From a virus (taxonomy: Duplodnaviria > Heunggongvirae > Uroviricota > Caudoviricetes): a stretch of 10,504 bases of DNA. Position numbers and translations under genes: made by a program. Each line of letters opens with the position of its first letter. Position 1 is the first letter of the stretch. Of this stretch, positions 1-10,504 are shown in pieces. The notes under the pieces were generated by a model. The model was not told the origin of the DNA. It did no database searches and saw only the letters and a program-made list of their open reading frames with translations. The stretch spans positions 1 to 10,504 of IMG/VR virus record IMGVR_UViG_2541047882_000009, one strand, 5' to 3'.

Positions 1-580
1 TTAATTTATTGAATTTAAACGATAAATATCGCCACAAATAACGTTAAAAATCGCAAATTGACTACACCATTAACTACACCGTTCGGTGCACTGTATGCAA
101 CAACGTGGAACAAATAGACACAAGCGATATACAGGAAGGGACGATTTTTCTATGCAGATTTGCATAGTTCTAAATGAAGCTGGTGGATGATCACGGATAA
201 CCCGTTATGGGGATCACCATATCGACATCACGCCCACCAGCGAGATTAGTTACCTGGTTGCTGATGGGGGGCTGACGAACCTCGATGTCAGGATGCACAA
301 AACTAGTGAGACCTTTTTTCTCTGCAACAGGCCCATAATTCGCGTTTTCTTTGTCTGCCGTAAGGTGGGGGATTTTGGGCGGATCCAGCAATGGCGCGGA
401 TTTTGTTATTTTTTATAGATAGACCTCACCTATCAATCACATGCACATCTTCCCAAAAAAAGTTTTCGAACTTGCGGCGATGTGAACAAGGGTAGGCGGG
501 CGGTCCCATAAGCAATGGGGCGTAGGGATTTCGATCCCCCCGGGGGTATTAAACACCCCCCTATTTAAATACCGTCTTTT

Positions 581-630
581 TTGTCACTGTGTGTCACTGG
601 TTGTCACTCTCCGTCACGGTATGTCACCAT
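581..630. repeat. Five tandem 10-bp direct repeats with GTCAC core (tTGTCACTnn)
   Basis: Seen in sequence: ttgtcactgt, gtgtcactgg, ttgtcactct, ccgtcacggt, atgtcaccat, contiguous at exact 10-bp phasing. One additional TTGTCACTCA copy lies at 1181-1190. Confidence 0.7.
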
Positions 631-633
631 AAG

Positions 634-918
634 TTAACGTCGTAACCGCTCCGGCTTCTTCCAGTGGTAAGTAATTTTTTCTTTCTCCTGGTACATCTGC
701 ACGCGGCGACGGTATGACAACATCTCCAGAACTCTGGTGCGTATATTGCGCATATCCACGCCGTTAAGCTCAATACCGTCACGGCGCATCACCTCAGCCA
801 CCACACGCGCGTAATTTTCGGCTATCACGCTGTCCGGCTGCGTGGCCTCCTGTTTGCCTGCTGCCTGGTTGGCTCCGGTAACGCGGCGAATCATTTTGAG
901 CATTTCGGCTTCGGTCAT
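634..918 (-). CDS. Hypothetical protein, 94 aa (six-frame ORF extends to 948)
   Basis: Seen in sequence: the preferred start is the ATG at 918, with a GGAGG SD 8 nt upstream; the earlier in-frame ATGs at 948 and 924 have no or poorly spaced SDs. No family recognised. An array of GTCAC repeats lies immediately 3-prime. Confidence 0.5.
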   Translation of the reverse strand: MTEAEMLKMIRRVTGANQAAGKQEATQPDSVIAENYARVVAEVMRRDGIELNGVDMRNIRTRVLEMLSYRRRVQMYQEKEKITYHWKKPERLRR

Positions 919-962
919 TGTCATGGCCTCCGTGATGATGGGAAACAATGCCGTAATTGTGG

Positions 963-1165
963 CGGGTCCTTCCTGGAAAATGAAACACCGGGGGTAGCCA
1001 TACGCGCAATTCTTAACTGTTTATGAAAATTTTTCGGGAAAAGTCAGATCCGTTCTTCTTCTCTGTAACTCATTGTTTAATGGTAAAATCATCAAAAAAA
1101 GAAAGGATCTGACAGTGGTCATTTTGGGCCAAAAATGACGTTATCAGATCCTTTCTCAGTTTTGT
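963..1165 (+). other. Second lambda-type cos region in inverted orientation, with different R-site motifs and no cognate terS downstream on its strand
   Basis: Seen in sequence: the plus-strand reading has TACGCGCAATTCTTAACTGTTTATGAAAATTTTTC (1001-1035, identical to the inverted copy at 1914-1948), then CAGATCCGTTCTTCTTC (lambda R3 GGCGTTTCCGTTCTTCTTCG), an AT-rich IHF-like segment, GAAAGGATCTGACAG (lambda R2 GAAAGGAAACGACAG) and TATCAGATCCTTTCTC (lambda R1 CTGTCGTTTCCTTTCTC). The R2/R1 dyad (1101-1112 and 1145-1156) with flanking A and T runs could also act as the terS terminator. Confidence 0.55.
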
Positions 1166-1183
1166 TCAATAATTGCGCGGTTG

Positions 1184-1768
1184 TCACTCACCTTTCTGTT
1201 GCCGTAATTTCTCCGGCACGTTTCCGGTTGTTTCCATCAGGTAGTCTTTCAGAATGCGGGGCAGGTTATCGGCAGTTTTAGCGCACGCATTACAGGCGCG
1301 TGCTGTTTCTTTCCTCAGGCCCTCGATCATTGCCGGAGTCATCGCGGGGAACTGCCTTTGCATTGTGAGCGGTAAACTATCCATGATCGAAGAAATCTGG
1401 CGCGCCAGACCACGAAGCGCATAGAGAACGAACTCAGTATCTGTAACTTCCCCCGCCTCTCTGGCGTTCTTCAGTTCCTGCCCGTCCGCCTGTGCTTTGG
1501 TGAGACGGTAGCGTTCGTACTCTGTTGTGCCTGGCTGTAAATCTGATTCACCAGCAGCACGTAAATCATCAAGCTCCCTGCGGAGTTTTTCGTTTTCGAT
1601 GTCCTTCTCCCTCTGTGCATACCATTCGATCACCTGTGCAGAGTCGAAAGTCACTTCCACACCTTTACCCCCACCAGATACATGGGGAAGCCCTTGCGTT
1701 TGCCATCGTTCAATCGTGCGCGGATCGACGCCAAAAATCTTCGCAAGATTATTTTTATTAACATTCAT
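1184..1768 (-). CDS. terS: Terminase small subunit, lambda Nu1 family, 194 aa
   Basis: Seen in sequence compared with recalled lambda Nu1: [103 protein letters not shown] aligns almost colinearly with [109 protein letters not shown] SD 10 nt upstream. The recognition-helix region differs from lambda. Confidence 0.9.
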   Translation of the reverse strand: [194 protein letters not shown]

Positions 1769-1985
1769 CTATCAATTCCTTATCAAAAACCAGTTCCGAC
1801 ATGAAACGCCAAAAAAACAGGATTTTTGGGCTTTATGATGTCGTATGTTTCTGGTGGTTGATTTTAATAAAAACAAACAGTTATGCGCGAGAAGTACCGA
1901 CATGCTTTTTCCTGAAAAATTTTCATAAACAGTTAAGAATTGCGCGTACACGTACCCCCCGTGTTTCAGATTCTGGAAAGGACCC
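1769..1985 (-). other. Lambda-type cos region (cosN-proximal segment plus cosB with R3-I1-R2-R1 layout) immediately upstream of terS
   Basis: Seen in sequence compared with the recalled lambda left end: the minus-strand reading contains CTGTTTATGAAAATTTTTCAGG (lambda CTATTTATGAAAATTTTCCGG), then CATAACTGTTTGTTTTTATTAAAATCAACC (lambda CATAACTTAATGTTTTTATTTAAAATACC, the IHF I1 region), flanked by three repeats: CATGTCGGTAC (about 1891-1905), inverted ATGTCGTATG (about 1836-1848) and CATGTCGGAAC (about 1790-1804). These occupy the positions of lambda R3, R2 (inverted) and R1, and the terS ATG follows as Nu1 does in lambda. The exact nick positions cannot be assigned. Confidence 0.6.
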
Positions 1986-2011
1986 GTGAAAATTGGGGTG
2001 ATCACCACCGT

Positions 2012-2042
2012 TCCGGACACAAAAAAATCGCGAGGCCTTGCC
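2012..2042 (-). terminator. Rho-independent terminator ending the head operon
   Basis: Seen in sequence: stem CGCGAGG / CCTCGCG (2020-2026 and 2036-2042) with a 9-nt loop; on the minus strand it is followed by a T run (complement of the A run at 2012-2018). It sits about 25 nt after the 141-aa gene stop. Confidence 0.55.
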
Positions 2043-2065
2043 AACCTCGCGAACGTTCATTTCAG

Positions 2066-2491
2066 TTACTTAACAGACAGCAACAGCTTTTCATCTTCGG
2101 TCAGTCCGGCGTTACCATCACCGGCTGCTGGCCCAACACATTTCGGGCTGTGCTTTTCCATGTACGCATCAAACAAAAAAGCCGTTTTCTTTTCCTGCAT
2201 CATTGCCTGGGCATCCACGGCAGCCAGTAACGTTTGTGCATAGGTTACTGTCATTACTTCAGAACCACACTCAATCAGCTTACTGGTGAATTCAGGGTAT
2301 TTTGATGCCAGCGGTAACGCCTTGATACCCTCTATGCGCTGTTTATCACTCTCAGCCTTTGCAGTAAGTACCGTTCGGGCTTCTGTCAGTGATGCGCCAT
2401 TATTTGCGAGATTTTCCGCAAGCGTCGGGTATTTCTGCGCCTCAGGCAGTGCCATGATCAATGCTCTGGTTGAATTTGCTTTCTCAGTCAT
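2066..2491 (-). CDS. Hypothetical protein, 141 aa, with an internal duplicated motif; last gene of the head operon
   Basis: Seen in sequence: GGTGA SD 4 nt upstream and a 14-nt gap after the gpD-like stop. An internal repeat is present: ALPEAQKYPTLAENL and ALPLASKYPEFTSKL. No family recognised; no convincing similarity to lambda FI, FII or W. Confidence 0.55.
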   Translation of the reverse strand: MTEKANSTRALIMALPEAQKYPTLAENLANNGASLTEARTVLTAKAESDKQRIEGIKALPLASKYPEFTSKLIECGSEVMTVTYAQTLLAAVDAQAMMQEKKTAFLFDAYMEKHSPKCVGPAAGDGNAGLTEDEKLLLSVK

Positions 2492-2505
2492 AAATCACCA
2501 CAAAA

Positions 2506-2835
2506 TTATTGCCCTAAAGGCTGCACGGAAATACCGGAACCAACAAAAGCCGACACTTTTTTCTCGAACGTGTCCGCTGTATCAGGCCAGTTAATTTCAT
2601 CGATATTAAAAACCCCGCACTTATAAACCTGTGCGCGGTTTTTTGTGGCCGTGTTAATGTCCGATATGGTCAGATACACCGCCTTACCGGGTGTACCGTC
2701 CCACTCAACCATCAGGCCCGCGCCGTTCTGCATCAGCGGAGTTCTCGCTTTAATTTCTCCGGCACTGGCAAAACAGGCCAGCGTGCTGACCAGTTCCTGC
2801 GTGCCGGAAAGGAATTGCGTGTAAGGTGTTGGCAT
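2506..2835 (-). CDS. Head decoration protein, lambda gpD family, 109 aa
   Basis: Seen in sequence compared with the recalled lambda gpD sequence: TPLM, WDGT, YKCGVF (lambda YKSGTF), WPD/WPE and AFVGSGISV (AFAGTAISIV), at the same length (109 versus 110 aa). It lies immediately downstream of the capsid gene with a good SD. Confidence 0.8.
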   Translation of the reverse strand: MPTPYTQFLSGTQELVSTLACFASAGEIKARTPLMQNGAGLMVEWDGTPGKAVYLTISDINTATKNRAQVYKCGVFNIDEINWPDTADTFEKKVSAFVGSGISVQPLGQ

Positions 2836-2845
2836 ACGATCCCCT

Positions 2846-3901
2846 TTATTTCACTTCGACGGTAACAAAGCGACCAATATCCACGGGTACTGGCTGCGGG
2901 GCGCTGTGCGTCTGCACGTATTCAATCGCCGGATCGCCAGGTACGATATAATTTTTCGGGTAGTACATCCCCTCAGAAAACCCCTCGCGTGCCGCGTCCT
3001 GATCCATGATGGCACCATAAGCAACAAGGCCTTTATTTTCGGTATTGCCGAAAACCATCATGTTTTGTTTCAGGAAATATTGCTGCTGCCCGCATTCGTC
3101 GTCATAACGACCGGAATAAACCACGAGCGCCACATCACCGAGATACCCCTTGAAGCTGACAACGCCGCCCAAATCTTTTAGCGCAAGTTCAAGTGACGAG
3201 TTTGAACCGCGACGCGTGTCCAGGAGTTCGCGGAATCGACGGAACGAGCGCAAAATACGCCAGGCTTCGCCACCCATGACGATAATATTTACCGTACCTT
3301 TGGAAAAATCAGCGTAAGCCTCAATGTCGCTTATCGGATCAAACGTCTCGGCATCCTGTTTTGACCATTCTTTCCCGCCAGCCTGTGTAATGTGATTGGT
3401 TGCGGGTAATCCCCAGTCAATTTCATAACGCTCAATGCCTTCGCCTTCGATAACGTTACGGCCTGTTGTGATGGCATTGACCGCCAGCCATTCAACACGC
3501 GCTTTGATGGCAGCAAGCTGTTTTTTCTGGCTGTCGTGAACCATTTTTACGCGGCGTAGTGCCGGGGAAGACTGACCATTGCCGATCTGTTCTCCAGCCA
3601 TGCGCATGATTGTTTTAGTGGGATCAATAACGTGTTTGGGCTTCATATAACCCGGCGTGAAAGTGTTCGTTGTAAAACCTTTGTCACGCATAACCTGACT
3701 GCCTGACATTGGTGAACAAAACGGACTCATGACCACGTTTTCAATATCCAGCGTATCAAGCGCAATATCTCGCGTACTGAACGTGGCGATATTCGGAAAA
3801 AACAGCGTCGTAAAGAGCGGATTAAATTTAAATTCCGGCACATCTTCTCGCCCGATATTTTTCAGTAGCGTTGGTGTGCTTACCAGTTGTGGCGCTGTCA
3901 T
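2846..3901 (-). CDS. Major capsid protein, lambda gpE family, 351 aa
   Basis: Seen in sequence compared with the recalled lambda gpE sequence: shared blocks FKFNPLF, FTPGYMKPKH (lambda FTPGYVKPKH), ITQAGGKEWSK (ITQSGGTEWSK), DPISDIEAYA (DPTDDIEAYA), VNIIV, DTRRGSNSSLE (DTRRGSNSELE), KGYLGDVALVVYSGRY (KGMYGDVAIVVYSGQY), YPKN, GDPA and SAP, at near-identical length (351 versus 341 aa). Confidence 0.9.
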   Translation of the reverse strand: MTAPQLVSTPTLLKNIGREDVPEFKFNPLFTTLFFPNIATFSTRDIALDTLDIENVVMSPFCSPMSGSQVMRDKGFTTNTFTPGYMKPKHVIDPTKTIMRMAGEQIGNGQSSPALRRVKMVHDSQKKQLAAIKARVEWLAVNAITTGRNVIEGEGIERYEIDWGLPATNHITQAGGKEWSKQDAETFDPISDIEAYADFSKGTVNIIVMGGEAWRILRSFRRFRELLDTRRGSNSSLELALKDLGGVVSFKGYLGDVALVVYSGRYDDECGQQQYFLKQNMMVFGNTENKGLVAYGAIMDQDAAREGFSEGMYYPKNYIVPGDPAIEYVQTHSAPQPVPVDIGRFVTVEVK

Positions 3902-4107
3902 TACTCACCCCCATGAGGCTGATTCATACCAAGCGCAGCGCGTAAATGGCTGCGTACCATCCAGCCGACTGACGGCTTCACCAGGCACAACGGATCAAGG
4001 CCGATTTTTTTTCCTGCCTCTGCGTTCTCCTCAAAGCGCGCATTAAGTGCGGCGATAATATCGGGGCTGATGTACACGGATACACCGCCCGGCTTCTGTG
4101 TTCCCAT
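3901..4107 (-). CDS. Hypothetical small protein, 68 aa, first gene of the head operon
   Basis: Seen in sequence: strong SD (AAGAGGAA) 9 nt upstream; the stop overlaps the capsid gene start (TAATG). No family recognised. Confidence 0.55.
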   Translation of the reverse strand: MGTQKPGGVSVYISPDIIAALNARFEENAEAGKKIGLDPLCLVKPSVGWMVRSHLRAALGMNQPHGGE

Positions 4108-4157
4108 AAATGAGATTCCTCTTTGACTAAAAAAATAAACATAACGAAAAGTCAGTC

Positions 4158-4223
4158 ATGATTTTAATCATCATTGCATTTTTTGCAATGCGATTGACTG
4201 TTGTTGCAAATCATGAAATGATT
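4158..4223 (-). promoter_or_regulatory. Candidate head-operon promoter overlapped by palindromic operator-like sites
   Basis: Seen in sequence: minus-strand sigma70-like promoter with -35 TTGCAA (4183-4188), 16-bp spacer and -10 TAAAAT (complement of 4161-4166). The palindrome ATGATT-TT-AATCAT (4158-4171) covers the -10 and CATTGCA-TTTTT-TGCAATG (4172-4190) covers the -35. A third palindrome AATCAT-GAA-ATGATT (4209-4223) shares the ATGATT half-site. Confidence 0.4.
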
Positions 4224-4284
4224 ATGCCGTGGTTTTAATCCTTGTACCACAGAGTCATTCAGCATTAATCACGTTAGCGGCGTG

Positions 4285-4320
4285 AAATCCCCCGGAACCT
4301 CATCCCGGGGGATTTTTTTT
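4285..4320 (+). terminator. Rho-independent terminator, plus-strand orientation, with no annotated plus-strand gene upstream
   Basis: Seen in sequence: perfect 11-bp stem AAATCCCCCGG / CCGGGGGATTT (4285-4295 and 4305-4315) with a 9-nt loop, followed by a T run to 4320. Confidence 0.55.
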
Positions 4321-4326
4321 ACGCAC

Positions 4327-4352
4327 AAAAAAGCCGGGAAAAATCCCGGCTT
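4327..4352 (-). terminator. Rho-independent terminator ending the replication/ssb operon
   Basis: Seen in sequence: stem AAGCCGGGA / TCCCGGCTT (about 4331-4339 and 4344-4352) with an AAAA loop; on the minus strand it is followed by a T run (complement of the A run at 4325-4332). It sits 15 nt after the ssb stop. Confidence 0.6.
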
Positions 4353-4366
4353 CTGTCACTCGTTGC

Positions 4367-4789
4367 TTAAAACGGTATGTTATCCCCGTACGGATCATCA
4401 TTTCCCGCCTGTTGTTTTGCCCTGTTCAGTGCGTCAGTAGCCTGGCCCTGCTGGCCTTTTTTGCCGCCCGGTCGCGCCGTCCGCGCACTGATTACGCTGT
4501 CTGCGATAACCTGCCAGCCCTGCCGCGTTTCGCCGTTCTGGCCTGTCCACTGGCTTACCTGCATGTTACCCGCCACGCTCACCAGTTCGCCTTTGTGGTG
4601 CTTTGCCAGTGCGTCGGCCTGTCTGCCAAACGCCATGACGGATAACCACATCGTCGCCGTTCCGTCATCTGCCTGGCTGCACGGCAGGGGAACCGCCATA
4701 CTCGCCATCGCCATTTGTGTCCCCTTGCTGGTGGTCTTTAACTGCGGGTCAGCCACCAGCCGCCCGTAAGCCGCTATCTGTGCTGTCAT
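4367..4789 (-). CDS. ssb: Single-stranded DNA-binding protein (short SSB), 140 aa
   Basis: Seen in sequence: OB-fold-like N-terminus (IAAYGRLVADPQLKTTSKG..., WLSVMAFGRQADALAKHHKGELVSVAGNMQVSQWTGQNGETRQ), a Gly/Gln-rich linker and an acidic tail ending DDPYGDNIPF. Established knowledge: this parallels E. coli SSB, including the C-terminal D-D-D-I-P-F protein-interaction tail. Confidence 0.85.
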   Translation of the reverse strand: MTAQIAAYGRLVADPQLKTTSKGTQMAMASMAVPLPCSQADDGTATMWLSVMAFGRQADALAKHHKGELVSVAGNMQVSQWTGQNGETRQGWQVIADSVISARTARPGGKKGQQGQATDALNRAKQQAGNDDPYGDNIPF

Positions 4790-5037
4790 GCTGTCTGTTC
4801 TCCGGTTTTAACGTTGATGGTTGTCACCTGTTCCGCTTCGGCAATCTCCCGCTCTGTCAGCGTGGCAAAGTTTGCCGCCGCCGTGGTCATGAATGCGCTT
4901 ATCAGTTCGGGATGTGCTTTCGCGTATCCTTCTCCGGCATGGCGGTCTATCGTTCTGATTGCCACCTTTAAGGCGTGCTCTGTCATGTCTAATGCGCGAT
5001 ATTTTGGTGCTGTCTTATCTCTGGTTTTTCTGGTCAT
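4786..5037 (-). CDS. Hypothetical protein, 83 aa (the six-frame ORF extends to 5169 but the upstream part is made of iterons)
   Basis: Seen in sequence: the internal Met at 5037 has an AGGTGG SD 4 nt upstream, and the 5-prime extension of the ORF overlaps the iteron array, so the shorter start is preferred. The stop overlaps the ssb start (ATGA). No family recognised. Confidence 0.5.
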   Translation of the reverse strand: MTRKTRDKTAPKYRALDMTEHALKVAIRTIDRHAGEGYAKAHPELISAFMTTAAANFATLTEREIAEAEQVTTINVKTGEQTA

Positions 5038-5040
5038 GCG

Positions 5041-5249
5041 CCCACCTGTGCCCACTTTTTCTACCCACTTTTCATGGTTTCCCACTTCGTCCCACCTGGG
5101 ATTTTGTGGTTTTATATCGTACTGTTTCATAAGAGTTTTTTTAGTGCCCACTTTTTGGGATGTATACACGTGGGAAAGTGGGCGATTTTGTTAAATTCCA
5201 GTTAAATTACCCACTATTCCCACTTTTAACGCCCACTTTTTACAGTGGG
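5041..5249. repeat. Iteron array, about 9 direct and 3 inverted copies of CCCACTTTT-like motif; candidate replication origin
   Basis: Seen in sequence: CCCAC(C/T)T copies starting at about 5041, 5051, 5064, 5081, 5091, 5147, 5210, 5219 and 5232, and inverted GTGGG copies at about 5170, 5178 and 5245. Inference: placement directly downstream of the rep gene stop matches the usual ori position in PICI/SaPI-type elements. Confidence 0.6.
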
Positions 5250-6646
5250 TGAACATCATCCCCATCGACGCAAATCACGCCGTCTTTTTCCAGTTTGGCT
5301 AACCATCGTTTAAGGTGTTTTGTGTCATATCCCAGCTTTTTCATGTCATCACGTAGCAGCGGGATCGTACATTTATCACCATGCTGTATACGCGACCGGA
5401 TACAACCCCATAAAGCCGTGTGATTTTCCGTCTTGTTCCCGGCCTCCTCTATGCGCTCCAGTTCAGCAGGGGCGCGGGGAACGTCAATCACCACCATGGA
5501 CACAATCTCTTCGCCATCTGTATCGGTGAACACCTCCACGCTTTTAAGATCGTATGCACTCTCTTTTGGCTCCTCTGCGTCCTTCATCTTCGTACACGCC
5601 GCCACCAGTGCTGTAACCTCTGAATTTTCCCGGCTGATTCGGTACTCTGCATCAAGCGCGGCACGGAATGCGCTGGAACCGCGCGCCCCCTTTGTTTCAT
5701 CCTTGCCGGAATGGTGAACCACCAGCACCGTGGCCCCTGTGGCCTGCTTTATCGCGTCACACCCCTGGATAAATGCGCCCATATCGCGGGAATCATTTTC
5801 ATCATTCCCACCAAAGCAACGGGCCAGCGTGTCGATCACAATCAGCCGCACATTTTCGCCCGTTCTGCTCTTAACAAGTCCGGCAGTCCTGATAACCTGC
5901 TCCACATAGTCAGGCGATGCGGGGAAGACAGGCGCGTTAACGATGCACAAATCTGTAACCACCTTGTCATGGGTTATCTCCCACGCCTTAACGCGGCGTT
6001 TTACGCCCATACTGCCTTCGCCAGCGATATAGATAACAGCGCCCTTACTTACCCTGCGGCCTCCCCATGCCATACCTGTGGCAACATGGCACGACCAGGA
6101 AATAGCCAGGAACGATTTATAAGAACCGCTGGCCCCGTAGGTGCTGCATAATGACTCAGCCGGAATAAGCCCCTTAATTACGTAGCTTTGCTGCGCGTCG
6201 AATCCCTCAGAACCCCATGAGATGGGAAGTGTGATTTTTCGCTTTCCACCATTCATGACCAGACTTTCCCCGCGTTCCCAGGTTTCTTTAAGCCGCGGTA
6301 GTTGCTCGCTCCAGTCCTCCAGCAGTTCGAAATTCTCTGAAAGTAACCGTGCTTCCTGGACACCTGCGATCGCCAGTTTGGTGGCAATGGTCAGCATCTG
6401 CATATCGTCCAGGTTTCCGGCGCGTATGACCTTTGCTCTGTATCGTCCTTCATCAACAATCTGTAAATTGTCCAGTTCGCTTAACTGATAACGGCCCAGG
6501 TAAACCGGAGGGATGGGATCGCCTGCTTTTTTGGCCTGTGCAATCATGTAATGTTCTGCAAAGGAGTGAGCATTATCACCCGCAAAAATAACCGCCTCAG
6601 TGTGTTTATCTTTCGGTAACAGTTTTACGTTCGGTGCCAGTTTCAT
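5240..6646 (-). CDS. Replication initiator/helicase-type ATPase, RepA-like (AAA_25 RecA-fold core), 468 aa, with a C-terminal winged-helix-like tail
   Basis: Seen in sequence: Walker A-like GASGSYKS, Walker B-like RLIVIDTL followed by VLVVHHSGKDETKG, in the arrangement LIPAESLCSTYGASGSYKSFLAISW...AVIYIAGEGS typical of AAA_25/RepA-like proteins. Established knowledge: such proteins act as replication initiators or helicases in PICIs, plasmids and integrative elements. The N-terminal 150 aa is unassigned and has no obvious primase motifs. An iteron array lies immediately 3-prime. Confidence 0.8.
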   Translation of the reverse strand: MKLAPNVKLLPKDKHTEAVIFAGDNAHSFAEHYMIAQAKKAGDPIPPVYLGRYQLSELDNLQIVDEGRYRAKVIRAGNLDDMQMLTIATKLAIAGVQEARLLSENFELLEDWSEQLPRLKETWERGESLVMNGGKRKITLPISWGSEGFDAQQSYVIKGLIPAESLCSTYGASGSYKSFLAISWSCHVATGMAWGGRRVSKGAVIYIAGEGSMGVKRRVKAWEITHDKVVTDLCIVNAPVFPASPDYVEQVIRTAGLVKSRTGENVRLIVIDTLARCFGGNDENDSRDMGAFIQGCDAIKQATGATVLVVHHSGKDETKGARGSSAFRAALDAEYRISRENSEVTALVAACTKMKDAEEPKESAYDLKSVEVFTDTDGEEIVSMVVIDVPRAPAELERIEEAGNKTENHTALWGCIRSRIQHGDKCTIPLLRDDMKKLGYDTKHLKRWLAKLEKDGVICVDGDDVHPL

Positions 6647-6942
6647 TTTTTACCTCTGGATGCGCTGAGCATGCTTTTTATTTTCTTAATATTTTCCCGT
6701 GCTTTTTCCCTGCTGGTGGGCTTACCGCGTGTTACGTTCTGTACCAGAGAAAAATCACGCCGGAACTGATAAACAGGCATCACGCAGTCATAGCCGTACC
6801 CATCACGGCGGTAAGTAACACACCGTCCCGCCACGCTTTTAATCGTTACAGTGCCGCCGTATTTATCTTTGAAAATATCGCCGGGGCGGATTTCAGGCCG
6901 AGCGGGGCCGCTGGCAGTAAAGCCAGAAATTTTCTGTTTCAT
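6643..6942 (-). CDS. Hypothetical basic protein, 99 aa (possibly DUF4222-like)
   Basis: Seen in sequence: ORF whose stop overlaps the rep start (ATGA). The motif GDIFKDKYGGTVTIKSVAGRCVTYRRDGYGYDCVMPVYQFRRDF is reminiscent of small prophage proteins found upstream of primase/rep genes; this is a recollection with low certainty. Confidence 0.5.
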   Translation of the reverse strand: MKQKISGFTASGPARPEIRPGDIFKDKYGGTVTIKSVAGRCVTYRRDGYGYDCVMPVYQFRRDFSLVQNVTRGKPTSREKARENIKKIKSMLSASRGKK

Positions 6943-6947
6943 GGTTT

Positions 6948-7181
6948 TTATTTCCCGGTGTGTTGTTCTTTATATCTGTCGTGCAAAAGGTCTATTTCTT
7001 GTAGTTCCATTATTACCGGCTCAAGAAGCGTTATTAACGCCGTCGCAATATTGCTGTTGCGTTTATTTCTTTCATTATCGCCAAGCGTTTCAAGCCATAA
7101 GCGCAATATTTCAAGCATGTTTTCACTGTAAGCAAGAGCACGGTATGCACGGTCTACTGTGTCATTGTAAATATCACACAT
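6948..7181 (-). CDS. Hypothetical helical protein, 77 aa
   Basis: Seen in sequence: start overlaps the stop of the 154-aa gene; the stop lies 5 nt before the next start. No family recognised. Confidence 0.5.
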   Translation of the reverse strand: MCDIYNDTVDRAYRALAYSENMLEILRLWLETLGDNERNKRNSNIATALITLLEPVIMELQEIDLLHDRYKEQHTGK

Positions 7182-7638
7182 GGCTTACATCCTCCGGGAA
7201 TTTTCTTCTGTAACGCGCCTCTGCCACATATTCCGCATAGTCCGACGCAATATTGAGAATATCGCTACCCGTTCCTGAATGTTTGGCGGTTTCCAGCAAA
7301 AAACATGCAGCTTTTACCATGTCAGCAACACATAACAGCGCAATATCTGTATCTTCCGGTGCGCCATCAAATTCCTGTTTCAGGGCATTAAAACGATCAT
7401 CACGCATAACCCCCCCATTTTCACAATCAGCAATCAGGATGGCTTTAGCCTCATTCAGTGCCATATCAGCGGTAAGCTGTGCGTAGGCCAGCGAATGGGG
7501 GATTATTTCCCCTGTATATTCCGTCTCTCTGGTAATGTGTTTTTCTGCGGTTGCTGCCGTGCATGAAATATCAATCAGCGCGTGCATCAGCGTTTTGATG
7601 GCTTCGGCGGCTGCGTCCGGACGGGTGTTATTGCACAT
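7174..7638 (-). CDS. Hypothetical acidic protein, 154 aa
   Basis: Seen in sequence: ORF with start overlapping the upstream stop and stop overlapping the downstream start, so it is translationally coupled within the operon. No family recognised. Confidence 0.6.
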   Translation of the reverse strand: MCNNTRPDAAAEAIKTLMHALIDISCTAATAEKHITRETEYTGEIIPHSLAYAQLTADMALNEAKAILIADCENGGVMRDDRFNALKQEFDGAPEDTDIALLCVADMVKAACFLLETAKHSGTGSDILNIASDYAEYVAEARYRRKFPEDVSHV

Positions 7639-7834
7639 GGCGCACCCCCTGACGAATACGGGCGGCGAATACCATCACACAGCCAGCCGGGGATTGCTGG
7701 CGTGCTTCCTGTTCGCTGGTGGCCTCAATGGTAATCACACGCGGTTGTGCCGTGCTCAGGGCGATAAAACGCCAGATGTATTTATTCAGGTTGTGCGAGT
7801 CCCGCCCTTGCGGGTGTGTGGTATGATTTCTCAT
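7628..7834 (-). CDS. Small protein, 68 aa, resembling Icd/Ash-like proteins of P4-like elements
   Basis: Seen in sequence: ATG at 7834 preceded by a GAGGT SD; the stop overlaps the start of the next gene (ATGTGCAATAA). It forms the in-frame C-terminal part of the spurious long ORF 7628..8680. Recalled, not searched: the motif ...RFIALSTAQPRVITIEATSEQEARQQSPAGCVMVFAARIRQ resembles Icd-like host cell division inhibitor family proteins. Confidence 0.5.
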   Translation of the reverse strand: MRNHTTHPQGRDSHNLNKYIWRFIALSTAQPRVITIEATSEQEARQQSPAGCVMVFAARIRQGVRHVQ

Positions 7835-8030
7835 AGCTACCTCGATACGCTTTCTATCGTTGGTGGTTAGACGCCCTGCATGTGTGCCACCACTGCGGGG
7901 CGTTGCTGTATATACACCACAATTATTGGTGTGCATACAGATTAAATTTAAGTGTGCTACAGTGTCAAGTGTTTTATTAACACACCTTTTGGTGTAATGT
8001 GTACACACCTCAAAATAACCGGACATCCTA
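7835..8030. promoter_or_regulatory. Divergent promoter/operator region between the small-regulator gene and the replication operon
   Basis: Seen in sequence: AT-rich gap containing several ACACC/GGTGT inverted repeats (ACACC-N9-GGTGT near 7914-7932, ACACC-TTTT-GGTGT near 7982-7995, GTGTACAC near 7999-8006). A minus-strand sigma70-like promoter is present: -35 TTGACA (complement of 7963-7968), 16-bp spacer, -10 TTTAAT (complement of 7941-7946). A leader hairpin lies near 7872-7900. Confidence 0.5.
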
Positions 8031-8330
8031 ATGGCAACAGGAAACATCAACAGCAGATCGCAAATGAAAAATATCCGCTTCCCCCATGATGTAATCGAGG
8101 AAATGGAAAATTCGAAAACGGAAGGGGAAACAATAGCCGCTTTCGTGATTACAGCTGTTCGCGGGGAGATCGCCCGCCGCCAAGCTGAAGGAAGCGGAGA
8201 AAATCCCCTGGTTTCTTCGCTCGATGCACTGGCGCAGGTGGAAAAAATTGGAGTCAAAGCTGCCGAGGAGATCGGGCAACTCGTCGCCGTCGCGCGTGAA
8301 GAACTCCAGCGCCGCAAGGCCAAAGAATAG
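8031..8330 (+). CDS. Small DNA-binding protein, ribbon-helix-helix-like; candidate repressor of the divergent replication operon
   Basis: Seen in sequence: 99-aa ORF and the only convincing plus-strand gene, divergent from the minus-strand operon. Inference: the N-terminal segment KNIRFPHDVIEEMENSKTEGETIAAFVITAVRGEIARR fits a beta-strand then two helices as in Arc/MetJ/CopG folds. The SD is weak (GGA only) and the true start could be the internal Met at codon 12. Confidence 0.5.
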   Translation: MATGNINSRSQMKNIRFPHDVIEEMENSKTEGETIAAFVITAVRGEIARRQAEGSGENPLVSSLDALAQVEKIGVKAAEEIGQLVAVAREELQRRKAKE

Positions 8331-8437
8331 GAATAGCCCACCAGCAAGCCAGCACACTGATCACATTGCCCACCAGCCGCAAATGTGGCATTGTTGGCTA
8401 TGCTCATGCGTTGGGGATAACGTGTAGCTTGTGTCGA

Positions 8438-8468
8438 GGGGCCACCGTAGCGGGTGGCCTTTGTTTTG
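8438..8468 (+). terminator. Rho-independent terminator downstream of the plus-strand regulator gene
   Basis: Seen in sequence: stem GGCCACC / GGTGGCC (8440-8446 and 8453-8459) with loop GTAGCG, followed by TTGTTTT. Confidence 0.55.
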
Positions 8469-8563
8469 CCTGTTATCCTGCAACTATGGTCATTTCGACC
8501 ACGGTTGATATAACCCCCCTGCACTGATCCAATTTTTTCGCAGCAGGTTAATTGTTCAGAAAG

Positions 8564-8591
8564 GCGGCTCCATTTCGGGGCCGCTTTTTTT
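8564..8591 (+). terminator. Second plus-strand rho-independent terminator
   Basis: Seen in sequence: stem GCGGCTCC / GGGGCCGC (one G-U pair) with loop ATTTC, followed by a run of seven T. Confidence 0.55.
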
Positions 8592-8732
8592 ATGCCTGAA
8601 AAACCACAATTTTGTTGTTTTCCAGTCTCACCAGGACGAGCGAAGCCCCGCCCCTGTTCGGGCGTATATCCAGTCTTCATGGTTAAATCTCTGTATTAGT
8701 GGATGGGAGGCGGCTGTGTGCCGCCAGCCTGA

Positions 8733-8936
8733 TTAGTGAACTGCCTCGCGGCTGTCCTTCCATGCCAGAACTTCGGATAAAGACCAGCCAACGGAACGAC
8801 CGCCGAGTTTACGCCGTGATGGGAATTGTCCGGTTTTTTCCAGGCGGTACCGACATGAGCGGCTCAGGCCTGTAAGTTGCTGACATTCTTTTTCACGTAT
8901 AAAGCGATCAGTGCTTAACACTATTGCCTCCGTCAT
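8733..8936 (-). CDS. alpA: AlpA-family (excisionase-like, MerR-type HTH) DNA-binding regulator, 67 aa
   Basis: Seen in sequence: 67-aa ORF downstream of int on the same strand. Established knowledge: the size and the motif ...QQLTGLSRSCRYRLEKTGQFPSRRKLGGRSVGWSLSEVLAWK... are typical of AlpA/Vis-like regulators of P4-like prophages and Gram-negative PICIs. An int then alpA order is the canonical layout. Confidence 0.8.
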   Translation of the reverse strand: MTEAIVLSTDRFIREKECQQLTGLSRSCRYRLEKTGQFPSRRKLGGRSVGWSLSEVLAWKDSREAVH

Positions 8937-9189
8937 TTCTCAAAGAGTCATTTGGTGTCTTATTGTGTCGTATTGTTCCCGCTGGAGTGATGAATGGCAA
9001 ATATTGGTGACGGCCATTTTACAGAAATGGGGTAATTAGAATAAAAATACTTTTAAATCATTGTGATAAAGTAGCGTAAAATTCTGTTTTTACGTCTTTT
9101 TTACATGTTTTTAAGAGTGATTCGCCAGTGTATAAAAAAACAGTATGCATATAAAAATCAAATGTTTATGGCGCTGTTTGATTTTTAAT

Positions 9190-9257
9190 CCGTTTGTTCC
9201 AGATTGTTCGCCGTTGTTCGTCGTGGTGTCTCGTTGTTTCACGTTGTGTCCGTTCTG
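9190..9257. repeat. Six to seven tandem 10-bp direct repeats (nCGTTGTKTC) downstream of int and upstream of the alpA promoter
   Basis: Seen in sequence: ccgtttgttc, cagattgttcg, ccgttgttcg, tcgtggtgtc, tcgttgtttc, acgttgtgtc at 10-bp phasing. A related trio (TTGGTGTC, TTGTGTCG, TTGTTCC) at 10-bp phasing lies at about 8944-8973, directly upstream of the alpA start. Confidence 0.65.
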
Positions 9258-9274
9258 AAAAATCGCGAAAAAAA

Positions 9275-10504
9275 TTATATTTCTCTGGCTATTGGCAGTG
9301 TGGTTACGTTTTCGTGAGCACCTGCCAGTATCTCTAATCGCTCTGTCCACATATCCAGCGCGTTACGTTTCGCATCAATATAGCGGGAGTGGTTATAGAC
9401 TCGTTGCATCCCTGGCATCTGGTGGGCGGTAAGTTGCTCGACAATATGCGGATCCACGCCTAAATCGTTCAGCATCGTGGTAAACGTGCGCCGTATATCG
9501 TGCAGGGACCAGTGAGGATGGTTTAATTTTTTGTGCGTAAATCTGCCGTATTGTGACACGCTGGCTTCCTGTTTCAGTTCTCCGAGTAATAACCCTGTGT
9601 GCCTGTTCTGCTCCACCAGCTGCGTGACGAACGGCAAAATGCTTTCCGGTATTGGCCTGAATATGGCGACCTTCGTTTTGCTGTGTTCTTTCGGTACCGT
9701 CCAGAGCATTTCCTTAAAATCCCACTCCCTGATCTCCGACAGCCTCAGTTCTCCGGTCCGGCAGCCGAACACAATCAGGAGGCGGATTAGTGCGCTGTAG
9801 TAGGGCGGGAATATTTTTTTATCCAGCGCCTGTAATAATTCGCCCAGTTCTTTGTTACTAAGCACGCGTTCGCTTATGCCCGGCTTTTTGCCAACGTCCA
9901 GCACGTTGAGATCATCCAGAACGTTACTGACTGCGTAGCGACGTTTACGGCAGAACTTAAGCGCCTGTTTGCACGCCTGCATCATGTGGCCAGATGTTAC
10001 GGGTGATTTTTTGCGTATCCGGTCAAAACAGGCCAGCCAGTGACGCAACTCGCATTTATCCAGCGGCATATTGCCAATATGCTGTATGACGTGATTATTC
10101 AGGCGGCTTTTCAGGGAGACGTAATCGACACGGTTTTCCTTTACGTGCATTTCCAGCCAGTAGCTGATCGCATCGCCTACCGTTACCGGCTTTAGTGCTT
10201 CCTGTATGGAGTAATTAAGCTCATGGCGTGGATTTTTTCCCTCTGCCAGCCATGCGCGACACTGTGCTGCTTTTTCCCTGGCTGCTTTCAGGCTCAGATC
10301 CGGATAATTTCCCAGCTTCAGGCGTTCCGGTGATACCTGGCGTCCTGTTCCTGCCCTGTAGGTGAAATACCAGGTTAACAGACCGCTGGTGGAGTGTCTG
10401 ATACTCAGATTTCCACCGTCATTAAGAAAGGTGGTTTTTTGGGCTGGTGTGCCGTTGATTTTTCTTAGCTGCGTGTCGCTCAGTTTGTTAAGTGCCCTGC
10501 TCAT
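9275..10504 (-). CDS. int: Tyrosine site-specific integrase, P4-type, 409 aa
   Basis: Seen in sequence: 409-aa ORF whose ATG is the last three bases of the window. Established knowledge: the N-terminal arm-binding-like segment (LSDTQLRK...FLNDGGNLSIR...WYFTYR...LKLGNYPDLSLKAAREKA) and the C-terminal catalytic region with HxxR and a terminal Tyr context (HDIRRTF...HQMPGMQRVYNHSRY) match the P4 integrase family layout. The promoter and any att site or tRNA would lie beyond the window. Confidence 0.9.
   Translation of the reverse strand: MSRALNKLSDTQLRKINGTPAQKTTFLNDGGNLSIRHSTSGLLTWYFTYRAGTGRQVSPERLKLGNYPDLSLKAAREKAAQCRAWLAEGKNPRHELNYSIQEALKPVTVGDAISYWLEMHVKENRVDYVSLKSRLNNHVIQHIGNMPLDKCELRHWLACFDRIRKKSPVTSGHMMQACKQALKFCRKRRYAVSNVLDDLNVLDVGKKPGISERVLSNKELGELLQALDKKIFPPYYSALIRLLIVFGCRTGELRLSEIREWDFKEMLWTVPKEHSKTKVAIFRPIPESILPFVTQLVEQNRHTGLLLGELKQEASVSQYGRFTHKKLNHPHWSLHDIRRTFTTMLNDLGVDPHIVEQLTAHQMPGMQRVYNHSRYIDAKRNALDMWTERLEILAGAHENVTTLPIAREI

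What the first reader, a model, noticed from the sequence alone, without database searches (positions are those of the whole stretch)
5041..5249. CCCACTTTT iteron array between rep and the next gene marks a probable origin
About a dozen copies of a 9-bp motif in both orientations sit directly after the rep stop codon. The rep C-terminal 70 aa looks like a winged helix that could bind them. The array overlaps the 5-prime part of the next six-frame ORF, so the true start of that gene is probably the internal Met at 5037.
Basis: partly seen in the sequence, partly recalled or inferred. Interest (0 to 1): 0.45.

Follow-up and report, generated by a model that had tools for sequence, protein, structure and literature searches.

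The report
Replication origin of a phage satellite island
The repeat array is real and is very probably the replication origin of a small E. coli phage-satellite island (a PICI), bound by the winged-helix tail of the helicase encoded just upstream; this kind of origin has already been described, so it is a well-supported but ordinary finding.

Summary
Twelve copies of the core CCCAC (consensus CCCACTTTT; AAAAGTGGG on the gene strand) lie in 5041-5249. The other 10.3 kb holds 12 more, and 500 simulated sequences gave at most 6 per 215 bp.

The window is an EcCICFT073/EcCIO42-type Gram-negative phage-inducible chromosomal island. For these islands, an origin made of two iteron sets around an AT-rich stretch, just 3' of the rep gene, is already published.

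The layout is three direct copies plus one inverted copy over the rep stop, an AT spacer, a 38-bp dyad (5146-5183) centred on TGTATACA, a 47-bp AT-rich tract, then five direct copies ending at the next gene's ATG.

Rep is an RSF1010-RepA-like RecA-fold helicase with a confidently modelled C-terminal winged helix. Across 72 related loci, the residue after invariant K443 predicts the fourth base of GTGNG without exception (H or K gives G, N gives A, S or G gives C). This includes two pairs whose C-terminal domains differ by only one or two residues, including H to N, while nearly all copies change.

The iterons travel with rep, not with terS or int. The next gene starts at ATG 5037.

Replication itself is untested. 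Verdict: new member of a known kind, low to moderate interest.

The parts
5240..6646 (-). rep: 468-aa initiator-helicase. It has an N-terminal alpha/beta domain (aa 1-125), a RecA-fold AAA_25 helicase core (aa ~146-390) and a C-terminal winged helix (aa ~397-468).
5243..5458 (-). Coding region of the Rep C-terminal winged-helix domain (aa 397-468), the proposed iteron reader.
5315..5317 (-). Codon of His444, the residue after invariant Lys443 at the N-cap of helix 3. It is the proposed specificity residue for the fourth base of GTGNG.
   Evidence: H->G 14/14, K->G 27/27, N->A 22/22, S->C 8/8, G->C 1/1 loci. Two near-identical-domain H/N pairs switch GTGGG to GTGAG.
5210..5249 (.). Rep-proximal iteron cluster: three direct copies (5210-5218, 5219-5227, 5232-5240; motif CCCACTTTT on +) and one inverted copy (5241-5249) that overlaps the last three rep codons and the stop.
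   Evidence: The positions are conserved in E. coli variants.
5183..5209 (.). First AT-rich spacer (22% GC).
5146..5183 (.). 38-bp dyad-symmetric core: iteron 5147-5155, palindrome TGTATACA at 5161-5168, and two opposite-strand iterons at 5166-5174 and 5174-5182. It is the proposed site where two Rep assemblies meet and melting starts.
   Evidence: Inverted repeats I1 and I8 (GCCCACTTT / AAAGTGGGC, 100% complementary, 20 nt apart). The pattern inverted iteron - TATA(T/C)A - direct iteron is found 58-86 nt after the rep stop in 69 of 84 related loci, against 4% of background windows.
5100..5146 (.). Main AT-rich tract (47 bp, 28% GC; A-rich on the gene strand), the proposed unwinding region.
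   Evidence: An A-rich stretch is present at this position in all aligned variants, although its sequence varies.
5041..5099 (.). Distal iteron cluster: five direct copies (starts 5041, 5051, 5064, 5081, 5091; spacing 10, 13, 17, 10 bp).
4786..5037 (-). Next gene, an 83-aa protein of unknown function (phrog_1231). The true start is ATG 5035-5037, and the last iteron (5041-5048, CAGGTGGG on the gene strand) doubles as a Shine-Dalgarno-like sequence.
4367..4789 (-). Single-stranded DNA-binding protein gene, part of the same replication module.
   Evidence: Pfam SSB E=2e-16. The synteny is conserved in EcCICFT073, EcCIO42 and the O157 island.

Best explanation
The 5041-5249 array is the replication origin of a roughly 10-kb phage-inducible chromosomal island (PICI) of the EcCICFT073/EcCIO42 type.

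Shown here:
- The island's Rep is a single polypeptide that joins a RecA-fold hexameric-helicase core, related to RSF1010 RepA, T7 gp4 and DnaB, to a C-terminal winged-helix domain.
- The iteron sequence tracks one residue of that winged helix across the family.
- The array has a fixed architecture directly after the rep stop.

Inferred:
- The winged helix reads the 9-bp iterons (AAAAGTGGG on the gene strand), with invariant K443/R447/W448/K451 on the constant AAGTG part and residue 444 (His here) on the fourth base of GTGGG.
- Rep molecules collected on the two direct-repeat arrays (3 proximal, 5 distal) and on the oppositely oriented copies of the 38-bp dyad (5146-5183, centred on TGTATACA) assemble on either side of the AT-rich DNA.
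- They melt it and load themselves as helicase rings without a separate loader, as shown for SaPI Reps.
- The island's own SSB then coats the strands.
- Priming is supplied either by the host or helper primase or by the uncharacterised N-terminal domain, because this 468-aa Rep lacks the Zn-ribbon/Toprim primase that longer relatives carry.
- Firing is expected after helper-phage induction and excision, giving concatemers for packaging.
For: - Enrichment: 12 cores in 215 bp against 0.25 expected, with a simulated maximum of 6.
- Island identity: int, AlpA (PF05930, E=3e-18), Icd-like, DUF4222, rep, hyp83, SSB, lambda-E-type capsid, decoration protein and Nu1-type TerS, all on one strand. The gene order matches the published PICIs EcCICFT073 and EcCIO42.
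[quoted passage not shown] EcCICFT073 rep-ori drives plasmid maintenance, and this is lost with delta-rep and reduced with delta-ori (PMC6092414). SaPI Reps are self-loading helicases whose C-terminal WH domain binds 6-12 iterons just downstream of rep around an AT-rich centre (PMC9371898).
- EcCIO42's published 'Pri-Rep' is this same RepA-family protein (63% identical), with GTGAG iterons in the same layout.
- The non-homologous SF3-type Pri-Rep of EcCICFT073 is followed, at the same map position, by 11 copies of a different repeat, TCTACC.
- Rep fold. WH fold.
- Covariation: 72 of 72 informative loci fit the rule.
- Checks on six further loci looked up afterwards: five fit the rule (P0118, P0035, P0085, P0098 cleanly; P0106 mostly). 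The sixth (P0117) carried a residue with no prior prediction and defined a new class, KG with GTGCGCG.
- The C-terminal domain of P0035 differs from that of L086 only by H to N, yet its origin has GTGAG x8 and GTGGG x0, against GTGGG x10 in L086.
- The window and L001 share 100% identical Rep and 211/215 identical origin bases, but only 45% identical TerS and different capsid and int modules.
- The dyad core is conserved in 69 of 84 loci against 4% of background windows.
Against: - No experiment exists on this Rep type or on this array. The only functional test in Gram-negative PICIs used a Rep of a different helicase superfamily.
- The figure of PMC6092414 that lists the iterons of other E. 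coli PICIs could not be seen.
- The helicase core was poorly modelled (pLDDT below 50 over much of aa 130-396), so hexamer formation and polarity rest on homology alone.
- The AT-rich tracts are not the least stable DNA in the window; several intergenic stretches elsewhere are weaker.
- The covariation proves coupling between the Rep tail and the repeats, not that the coupling serves initiation rather than regulation.
- The counts are not phylogenetically independent.
- No primase is identifiable in the island.
Confidence: 0.85

Rival explanations
1. The repeats are Rep-binding operators whose main job is regulation, not initiation. Possible roles are autoregulation, a roadblock to read-through from rep into the downstream SSB/capsid genes, or copy control by handcuffing.
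For: The array lies between rep and the next gene of a co-directional gene string, with no terminator and no sigma-70-like promoter between them. The last copy overlaps the ribosome-binding site of the next gene. Iterons of plasmids are known to serve both initiation and control (established knowledge). The covariation supports binding, not a particular outcome of binding.
Against: The binding protein is a helicase. The array encloses AT-rich tracts and a conserved dyad core typical of origins. The homologous position in EcCICFT073 and in SaPIs is a tested origin. An operator would not need 12 copies spread over 210 bp. This reading is more likely an additional role than an alternative.
Confidence: 0.08
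2. The array is a packaging signal (pac/cos-type) recognised by the island's small terminase, or a set of arm-type sites for the integrase.
For: The island encodes its own Nu1-type TerS (PF07471, E=4e-68) and an integrase with an arm-binding domain. Both protein types bind short repeated sites (established knowledge).
Against: The window and L001 have identical Rep and 98% identical arrays, but TerS only 45% identical and different int and capsid modules. The repeat sequence follows one residue of Rep across 72 loci. The array always abuts the rep stop, more than 3 kb from terS and int.
Confidence: 0.02
3. The repeats have no function of their own. They are either the coding sequence of the 127-aa ORF 4786-5169 or a chance or slippage product.
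For: A six-frame ORF does run through half of the array.
Against: The extension has in-frame stops in all five E. coli relatives examined that carry the orthologous 83-aa gene. Enrichment far exceeds simulation. The positions of the copies are conserved while their sequence changes in concert.
Confidence: 0.01

Closest known systems
Replication origins of Gram-negative PICIs (EcCICFT073, EcCIO42; Fillol-Salom et al. 2018, PMC6092414)
   Same: Same island family and gene order. The origin lies immediately 3' of rep, with two iteron sets around AT-rich DNA. EcCIO42 carries the same RepA-family Rep (63% identical) and the same array layout.
   Different: The iteron here is AAAAGTGGG with His444, whereas EcCIO42 and the O157 island use AAAGTGAGG with Asn. 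The experimentally tested EcCICFT073 uses a non-homologous D5/P4-alpha-type (SF3) Pri-Rep and TCTACC repeats. No member with the RepA-type Rep has been tested for replication, as far as the searched literature shows.
SaPI Rep/ori of Staphylococcus aureus (Ubeda 2007, 2012; Qiao et al. 2022, PMC9371898)
   Same: One protein is both initiator and helicase. A C-terminal winged helix reads 6-12 short iterons placed just after the rep stop. There is a central AT-rich region and oppositely oriented copies on either side. Loading is thought to need no separate loader.
   Different: SaPI Reps have SF3 or MCM-like AAA+ motors that move 3' to 5'. This Rep has a RecA-fold motor of the RepA/gp4/DnaB kind, for which 5' to 3' movement is expected from family knowledge. 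There is no sequence similarity.
RSF1010 (IncQ) RepA helicase
   Different: In RSF1010 the helicase has no DNA-reading domain. A separate initiator, RepC, binds 20-bp iterons, and RepB' primes at the ssi sites (established knowledge).
Satellite phage P4 alpha protein with ori and crr
   Same: It is an E. coli phage satellite with a multifunctional initiator whose C-terminal winged-helix domain binds short repeats (from my own knowledge of Ziegelin et al. and Yeo et al. 2002, plus the mention). Icd-like and Ash-like genes are shared by the island.
   Different: P4 alpha is a primase plus an SF3 helicase and needs a second repeat cluster (crr) kilobases away. Here every CCCACTT copy is in one cluster and the motor is RecA-fold.
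T7 gp4-type primase-helicases
   Same: Longer relatives of this Rep (689-699 aa; Xenorhabdus, Serratia) have Zn_Ribbon_Prim + Toprim_3 + AAA_25, which is the gp4 layout. T7 gp4 and Twinkle appear among the fold matches.
   Different: gp4 has no origin-reading winged helix. The window's Rep lacks a detectable Zn ribbon or Toprim.

Membership tests
PICI-type replication origin (SaPI / Gram-negative PICI) | Lies immediately 3' of the replication initiator gene | tested here: met
   The array begins inside the last three rep codons and runs 209 bp downstream. The same holds in more than 70 relatives.
PICI-type replication origin (SaPI / Gram-negative PICI) | [quoted passage not shown] | tested here: met
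   Clusters lie at 5041-5099 and 5147-5249 around a 47-bp tract of 28% GC. Nine copies are on one strand and three on the other. There is a dyad core at 5146-5183.
PICI-type replication origin (SaPI / Gram-negative PICI) | The cognate initiator is a helicase with a C-terminal winged-helix origin-binding domain | tested here: met
   AAA_25 / RepA-like core. A confidently modelled WH domain. This is prediction only.
PICI-type replication origin (SaPI / Gram-negative PICI) | Rep-ori pairs are specific: each Rep has its own iteron | tested here: met
   Indirect evidence only: residue 444 against the iteron base fits in 72/72 loci; five further loci looked up afterwards fit (one only mostly) and a sixth defined a new class; and two near-identical-domain H/N pairs switch iteron. 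Binding itself was not measured.
PICI-type replication origin (SaPI / Gram-negative PICI) | The rep-ori segment drives Rep-dependent replication | not testable with these tools
   Shown only for EcCICFT073 and SaPIs in the literature.
Gram-negative PICI (host element) | About 10-15 kb island with int, alpA and rep, unidirectional genes, and no lysis or tail genes | tested here: met
   int (PF00589), AlpA (PF05930) and rep are all on the - strand, with capsid, decoration and TerS genes but no portal, TerL, tail or lysis genes. It is syntenic with EcCICFT073 and EcCIO42. Induction by a helper phage is not testable here.
P4-alpha / D5-type (SF3) Pri-Rep | D5_N / Pox_D5 / DUF5906 helicase-primase domains | tested here: not met
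   These domains are present in EcCICFT073 Pri-Rep but absent from the window's Rep, which has only AAA_25.
IncQ (RSF1010) replicon | Separate RepC initiator with 20-bp iterons, RepB' primase and ssi sites alongside the RepA helicase | tested here: not met
   Only the RepA-like core is shared. There are no RepC or RepB hits among the island ORFs scanned against Pfam, NCBIfam and PHROGs. The iterons are 9 bp.
Iteron-plasmid initiators (Rep_3 type: F RepE, pPS10 RepA, R6K pi) | Tandem winged-helix initiator without a motor domain; 17-22-bp iterons; host DnaA/DnaB-DnaC required | tested here: not met
   There is no Rep_3 hit. Rep here carries its own helicase. By eye, no conserved DnaA-box-like sequence was seen in the aligned arrays; the best candidate, AAAACCACA, matches 6 of 9 positions and is not conserved. 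This was read from the sequence, not searched systematically.

The most novel reading that the evidence does not exclude
A single residue at the N-cap of the winged-helix recognition helix (position 444: His/Lys, Asn, Ser/Gly) sets which base (G, A, C) occupies the fourth position of the GTGNG iteron. On this reading, natural one-residue swaps have re-targeted the whole array of about 10-12 copies in concert. This would split this RecA-fold class of satellite initiator-helicases, untested so far, into predictable replicon-specificity groups. It would give a simple readable protein-DNA code for satellite origins, and would be the first self-loading, origin-reading helicase of the RepA/gp4 (SF4-like) kind. 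Evidence against a role in keeping co-resident islands apart: several genomes carry two islands of the same class (for example Xenorhabdus pairs L006/L009, L004/L013 and L016/L017).
Probability: 0.5. Interest if true: 0.45.

Novelty: new member of a known kind. Interest (0 to 1): 0.3.

Why it matters
It fixes the origin, the initiator and the true start of the neighbouring gene in a widespread family of E. coli and Enterobacterales phage satellites. About 30% of complete E. coli genomes have a match to this module.

It also shows that the same map position holds interchangeable, non-homologous initiator-origin cassettes.

The residue-to-base rule lets the replicon specificity of such islands be read from sequence. 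It also offers a compact natural system (one residue, one base) for studying how an initiator and its multi-copy origin change specificity together.

For genome annotation, it explains a recurrent 200-bp 'intergenic' repeat block and stops the next gene from being over-extended.

Tried and rejected
- Megablast of rep plus the array against the phage collection gave no match. tblastn found no true phage with the C-terminal winged helix; phage hits cover the helicase core only, at 43% identity or less. The module therefore looks satellite-borne, not phage-borne.
- Rfam at gathering threshold over the whole window gave nothing, so the array is not a known RNA.
- The promoter and terminator scan of 4700-5500 found no promoter and one terminator-like hairpin on the non-coding strand, which is no more than in shuffles.
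- Coding reading of ORF 4786-5169: rejected because of stops in relatives.
- TerS or Int site reading: rejected because modules have been shuffled around an unchanged rep-ori.
- Second, distant iteron cluster (P4 crr-like): none found. The only other near-match is a single CCCAATTTT at 1989.
- The full-length AF2 model was poor in the helicase core and was used only for the two end domains.
- Least-stable-DNA ranking: the AT tracts of the array are well below the window mean but are not the minimum, so this gives no independent support.
- Idea that different iteron classes exist to keep co-resident islands from cross-talk: weakened, because co-resident islands of the same class exist.

Full report
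**Observation.**
All genes of the window run on the - strand. rep occupies 5240-6646, with its TAA stop at 5240-5242. The next annotated gene starts at ATG 5035-5037. Between them lie 12 copies of the core CCCAC/GTGGG. Nine have CCCAC on the + strand (starts 5041, 5051, 5064, 5081, 5091, 5147, 5210, 5219, 5232). Three are on the other strand (9-mers 5166-5174, 5174-5182, 5241-5249). The rest of the 10.5-kb window holds 12 cores, about 0.25 per 215 bp. The maximum in 500 Markov simulations was 6. Every CCCACTT, CCCACTTT and CCCACTTTT in the window is inside the array. The consensus is CCCACTTTT, or AAAAGTGGG on the gene strand: 5 exact copies, 2 with one mismatch, and 5 with a degenerate T tail.

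**What the window is.**
The region matches chromosomal islands in about 1,600 of 5,426 complete E. coli genomes and no phage record at the DNA level. In strain RM11911 the 99%-identical module sits in a roughly 10-kb island next to tRNA-Pro. That island carries integrase, an AlpA-type regulator, Ash/Icd-like genes, DUF4222, 'helicase RepA family protein', an 83-aa hypothetical, SSB, capsid and small terminase. The window has the same set: AlpA PF05930, integrase, lambda-E-type capsid, D-type decoration protein and Nu1-type TerS. The gene order is that of the published Gram-negative PICIs EcCICFT073 and EcCIO42, and of the O157:H7 island next to phoQ.

The literature states the following for these islands. 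[quoted passage not shown] Four 'Pri-Rep' alleles exist in E. coli PICIs. The EcCICFT073 rep-ori segment maintains a plasmid in a rep- and ori-dependent way (PMC6092414; also PMC10111431). EcCIO42's Pri-Rep turns out to be the same RepA-family protein as here (63% identity), followed by the same kind of array. EcCICFT073 has instead a D5_N/DUF5906/Pox_D5 protein, followed at the same map position by 11 copies of TCTACC. The finding is therefore a member of a described class.

**Anatomy.**
Read in the direction of rep, the layout is as follows.
- One inverted copy over the last codons and the stop, then three direct copies (5249-5210).
- A 27-bp spacer of 22% GC (5209-5183).
- A 38-bp dyad (5183-5146) made of two inverted copies, the palindrome TGTATACA (5161-5168) and one direct copy. 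Its outer arms, GCCCACTTT and AAAGTGGGC, are perfectly complementary.
- A 47-bp tract of 28% GC (5146-5100).
- Five direct copies at 10-17-bp spacing (5099-5041).
- Three bases later, the ATG of the next gene.

Seven E. coli variants align over the whole roughly 213 bp with the copies in the same places. The motif 'inverted iteron - TATA(T/C)A - direct iteron' recurs 58-86 nt after the rep stop in 69 of 84 related loci from many Enterobacterales. Only 4% of random 90-nt windows contain such a TATA element. This dyad is the most conserved part of the origin.

**The protein.**

Longer relatives (689-699 aa) carry a Zn-ribbon and a Toprim primase in front of the same core. The window's 468-aa form has instead a confidently folded alpha/beta domain (aa 1-125) with no recognisable family.

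**Link between protein and repeats.**
Eighty loci fetched through the Rep protein, eight E. coli variants and six loci found through individual proteins were examined.

- In 72 loci there are at least 4 copies of GTGNG within 250 nt after the rep stop. In these, N is fully predicted by the residue after the invariant Lys of the K-x-[FLM]-x-R-W motif at the start of helix 3: His gives G (14/14), Lys gives G (27/27), Asn gives A (22/22), Ser gives C (8/8) and Gly gives C (1/1). Twelve loci were uninformative.
- These counts are inflated by shared ancestry. However, Asn with A occurs on at least four different helix backgrounds: Xenorhabdus NVKNFSRWLTKL, and E. coli EMKNFRRWLYKL, DVKNMRRWLAKL and EMKNFSRWLHKL.
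- Two natural pairs have almost identical C-terminal domains. P0035's 66-aa domain equals that of L086 except His to Asn, and its origin has GTGAG x8 and GTGGG x0, against GTGGG x10 in L086. P0085 differs from L088 by His to Asn and Asp to Tyr, and has GTGAG x9 against GTGGG x10.
- Of the six loci looked up afterwards, four fit the rule cleanly (P0118, P0035, P0085, P0098) and P0106 fits mostly, with a mixed array. P0117 carried Gly, for which there was no prior prediction, and revealed a new GTGCGCG class.
- Asn pairing with adenine and His/Lys with guanine fit the usual amino-acid-base preferences (established knowledge). The direct contact is inferred, not shown.

**Rivals.**
The repeats follow rep and not other DNA-binding proteins of the island. 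The window and RM11911 share 100% identical Rep and 211/215 origin bases, yet differ in TerS (45% identity), capsid module and integrase. This excludes pac/cos and arm-site readings.

The ORF running into the array is not coding: its extension has stops in every relative carrying the gene, and the 83-aa product matches phrog_1231 end to end. There is no Rfam family, no promoter and no credible terminator.

A regulatory role for Rep bound at the array cannot be excluded and may coexist with initiation. The last copy also provides the Shine-Dalgarno-like AGGTGGG of the next gene, and the array is transcribed with the gene string.

**Mechanism proposed.**
- *Shown:* a fixed repeat architecture directly after rep; a helicase-plus-winged-helix initiator; coupling between one residue and one iteron base; membership of a tested origin class.
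- *Inferred:* the winged helix docks Rep on the iterons. The opposed copies of the dyad and the flanking arrays bring Rep assemblies to both sides of the AT-rich DNA, which melts. Rep rings load themselves, as for SaPI Reps (PMC9371898), but with a RecA-fold motor, for which 5' to 3' polarity is expected. The island SSB covers the strands. Priming comes from the host, the helper or the unknown N-domain.

**Comparison and novelty.**
The origin works like SaPI and Gram-negative PICI origins and passes every membership feature that can be tested in silico. It is not a P4-alpha/SF3 initiator, not an IncQ replicon and not a Rep_3 iteron plasmid.

The kind is known, and the RepA-type allele is already listed as an E. 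coli PICI 'Pri-Rep'. New here are this specificity variant (His444 with AAAAGTGGG), the family-wide dyad core and the residue-to-base rule. I found none of these in the papers read, although the key figure of PMC6092414 could not be seen.

Interest is low to moderate. The finding is solid and tidy, but a specialist would expect it.

Noticed in passing
[not shown]
   Followed up: partly
window 1-10504 as a whole; L001; L082: The island is a mosaic. Its rep-ori is identical to that of the RM11911 island at tRNA-Pro, its integrase is 87% identical to that of the O157 island at the roxA/phoQ site, and its TerS is a 194-aa Nu1 type only 45-50% identical to either. No complete E. coli genome covers more than 69% of the window in one place.
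   Followed up: partly
L094 2917-3327 (contig carrying P0106): This origin mixes GTGAG, CTGAGG and two GTGGGG copies behind a Rep with Asn at the specificity position. It also has a second iteron-TATATA-iteron unit further downstream. It could be an intermediate or recombinant in a specificity switch.
   Followed up: no
L092 and L093 (contigs carrying P0118, P0117): Rep homologues with the same DUF4222-rep-iteron module are followed here by tail-assembly-chaperone and tape-measure genes instead of SSB and capsid genes, after a 430-460-nt gap. The replication cassette therefore also occurs in elements with tail genes (prophages or another satellite type).
   Followed up: no
window 7628-8680 (-): This is a 350-aa open frame with no family hit. 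Its last approximately 64 codons correspond to the annotated 'Icd-like cell division inhibitor' of relatives. The upstream part overlaps the Ash-family pseudogene region of RM11911. It is probably not one real gene.
   Followed up: no
window 5038-5048 (-): The iteron nearest the next gene (CAGGTGGG on the gene strand) doubles as its Shine-Dalgarno-like sequence 3-4 nt before ATG 5037. In the relatives examined that carry this gene, the last iteron copy (GGAG/GAGG/GGGG-containing) occupies the same place, so origin and translation signals overlap.
   Followed up: partly
L089 3997-4284 (EcCICFT073): The published EcCICFT073 origin region holds 11 copies of TCTACC/GGTAGA in both orientations behind a D5/Pox_D5-type Pri-Rep. 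Two non-homologous initiator-origin cassettes therefore occupy the same slot of one island family, between DUF4222 and the 83-85-aa gene plus ssb.
   Followed up: partly
L006/L009, L004/L013, L016/L017, L038/L039: Several genomes (Xenorhabdus, Pectobacterium) carry two islands with the same Rep specificity class and the same iteron. Sharing an origin type evidently does not prevent co-residence in the integrated state.
   Followed up: no
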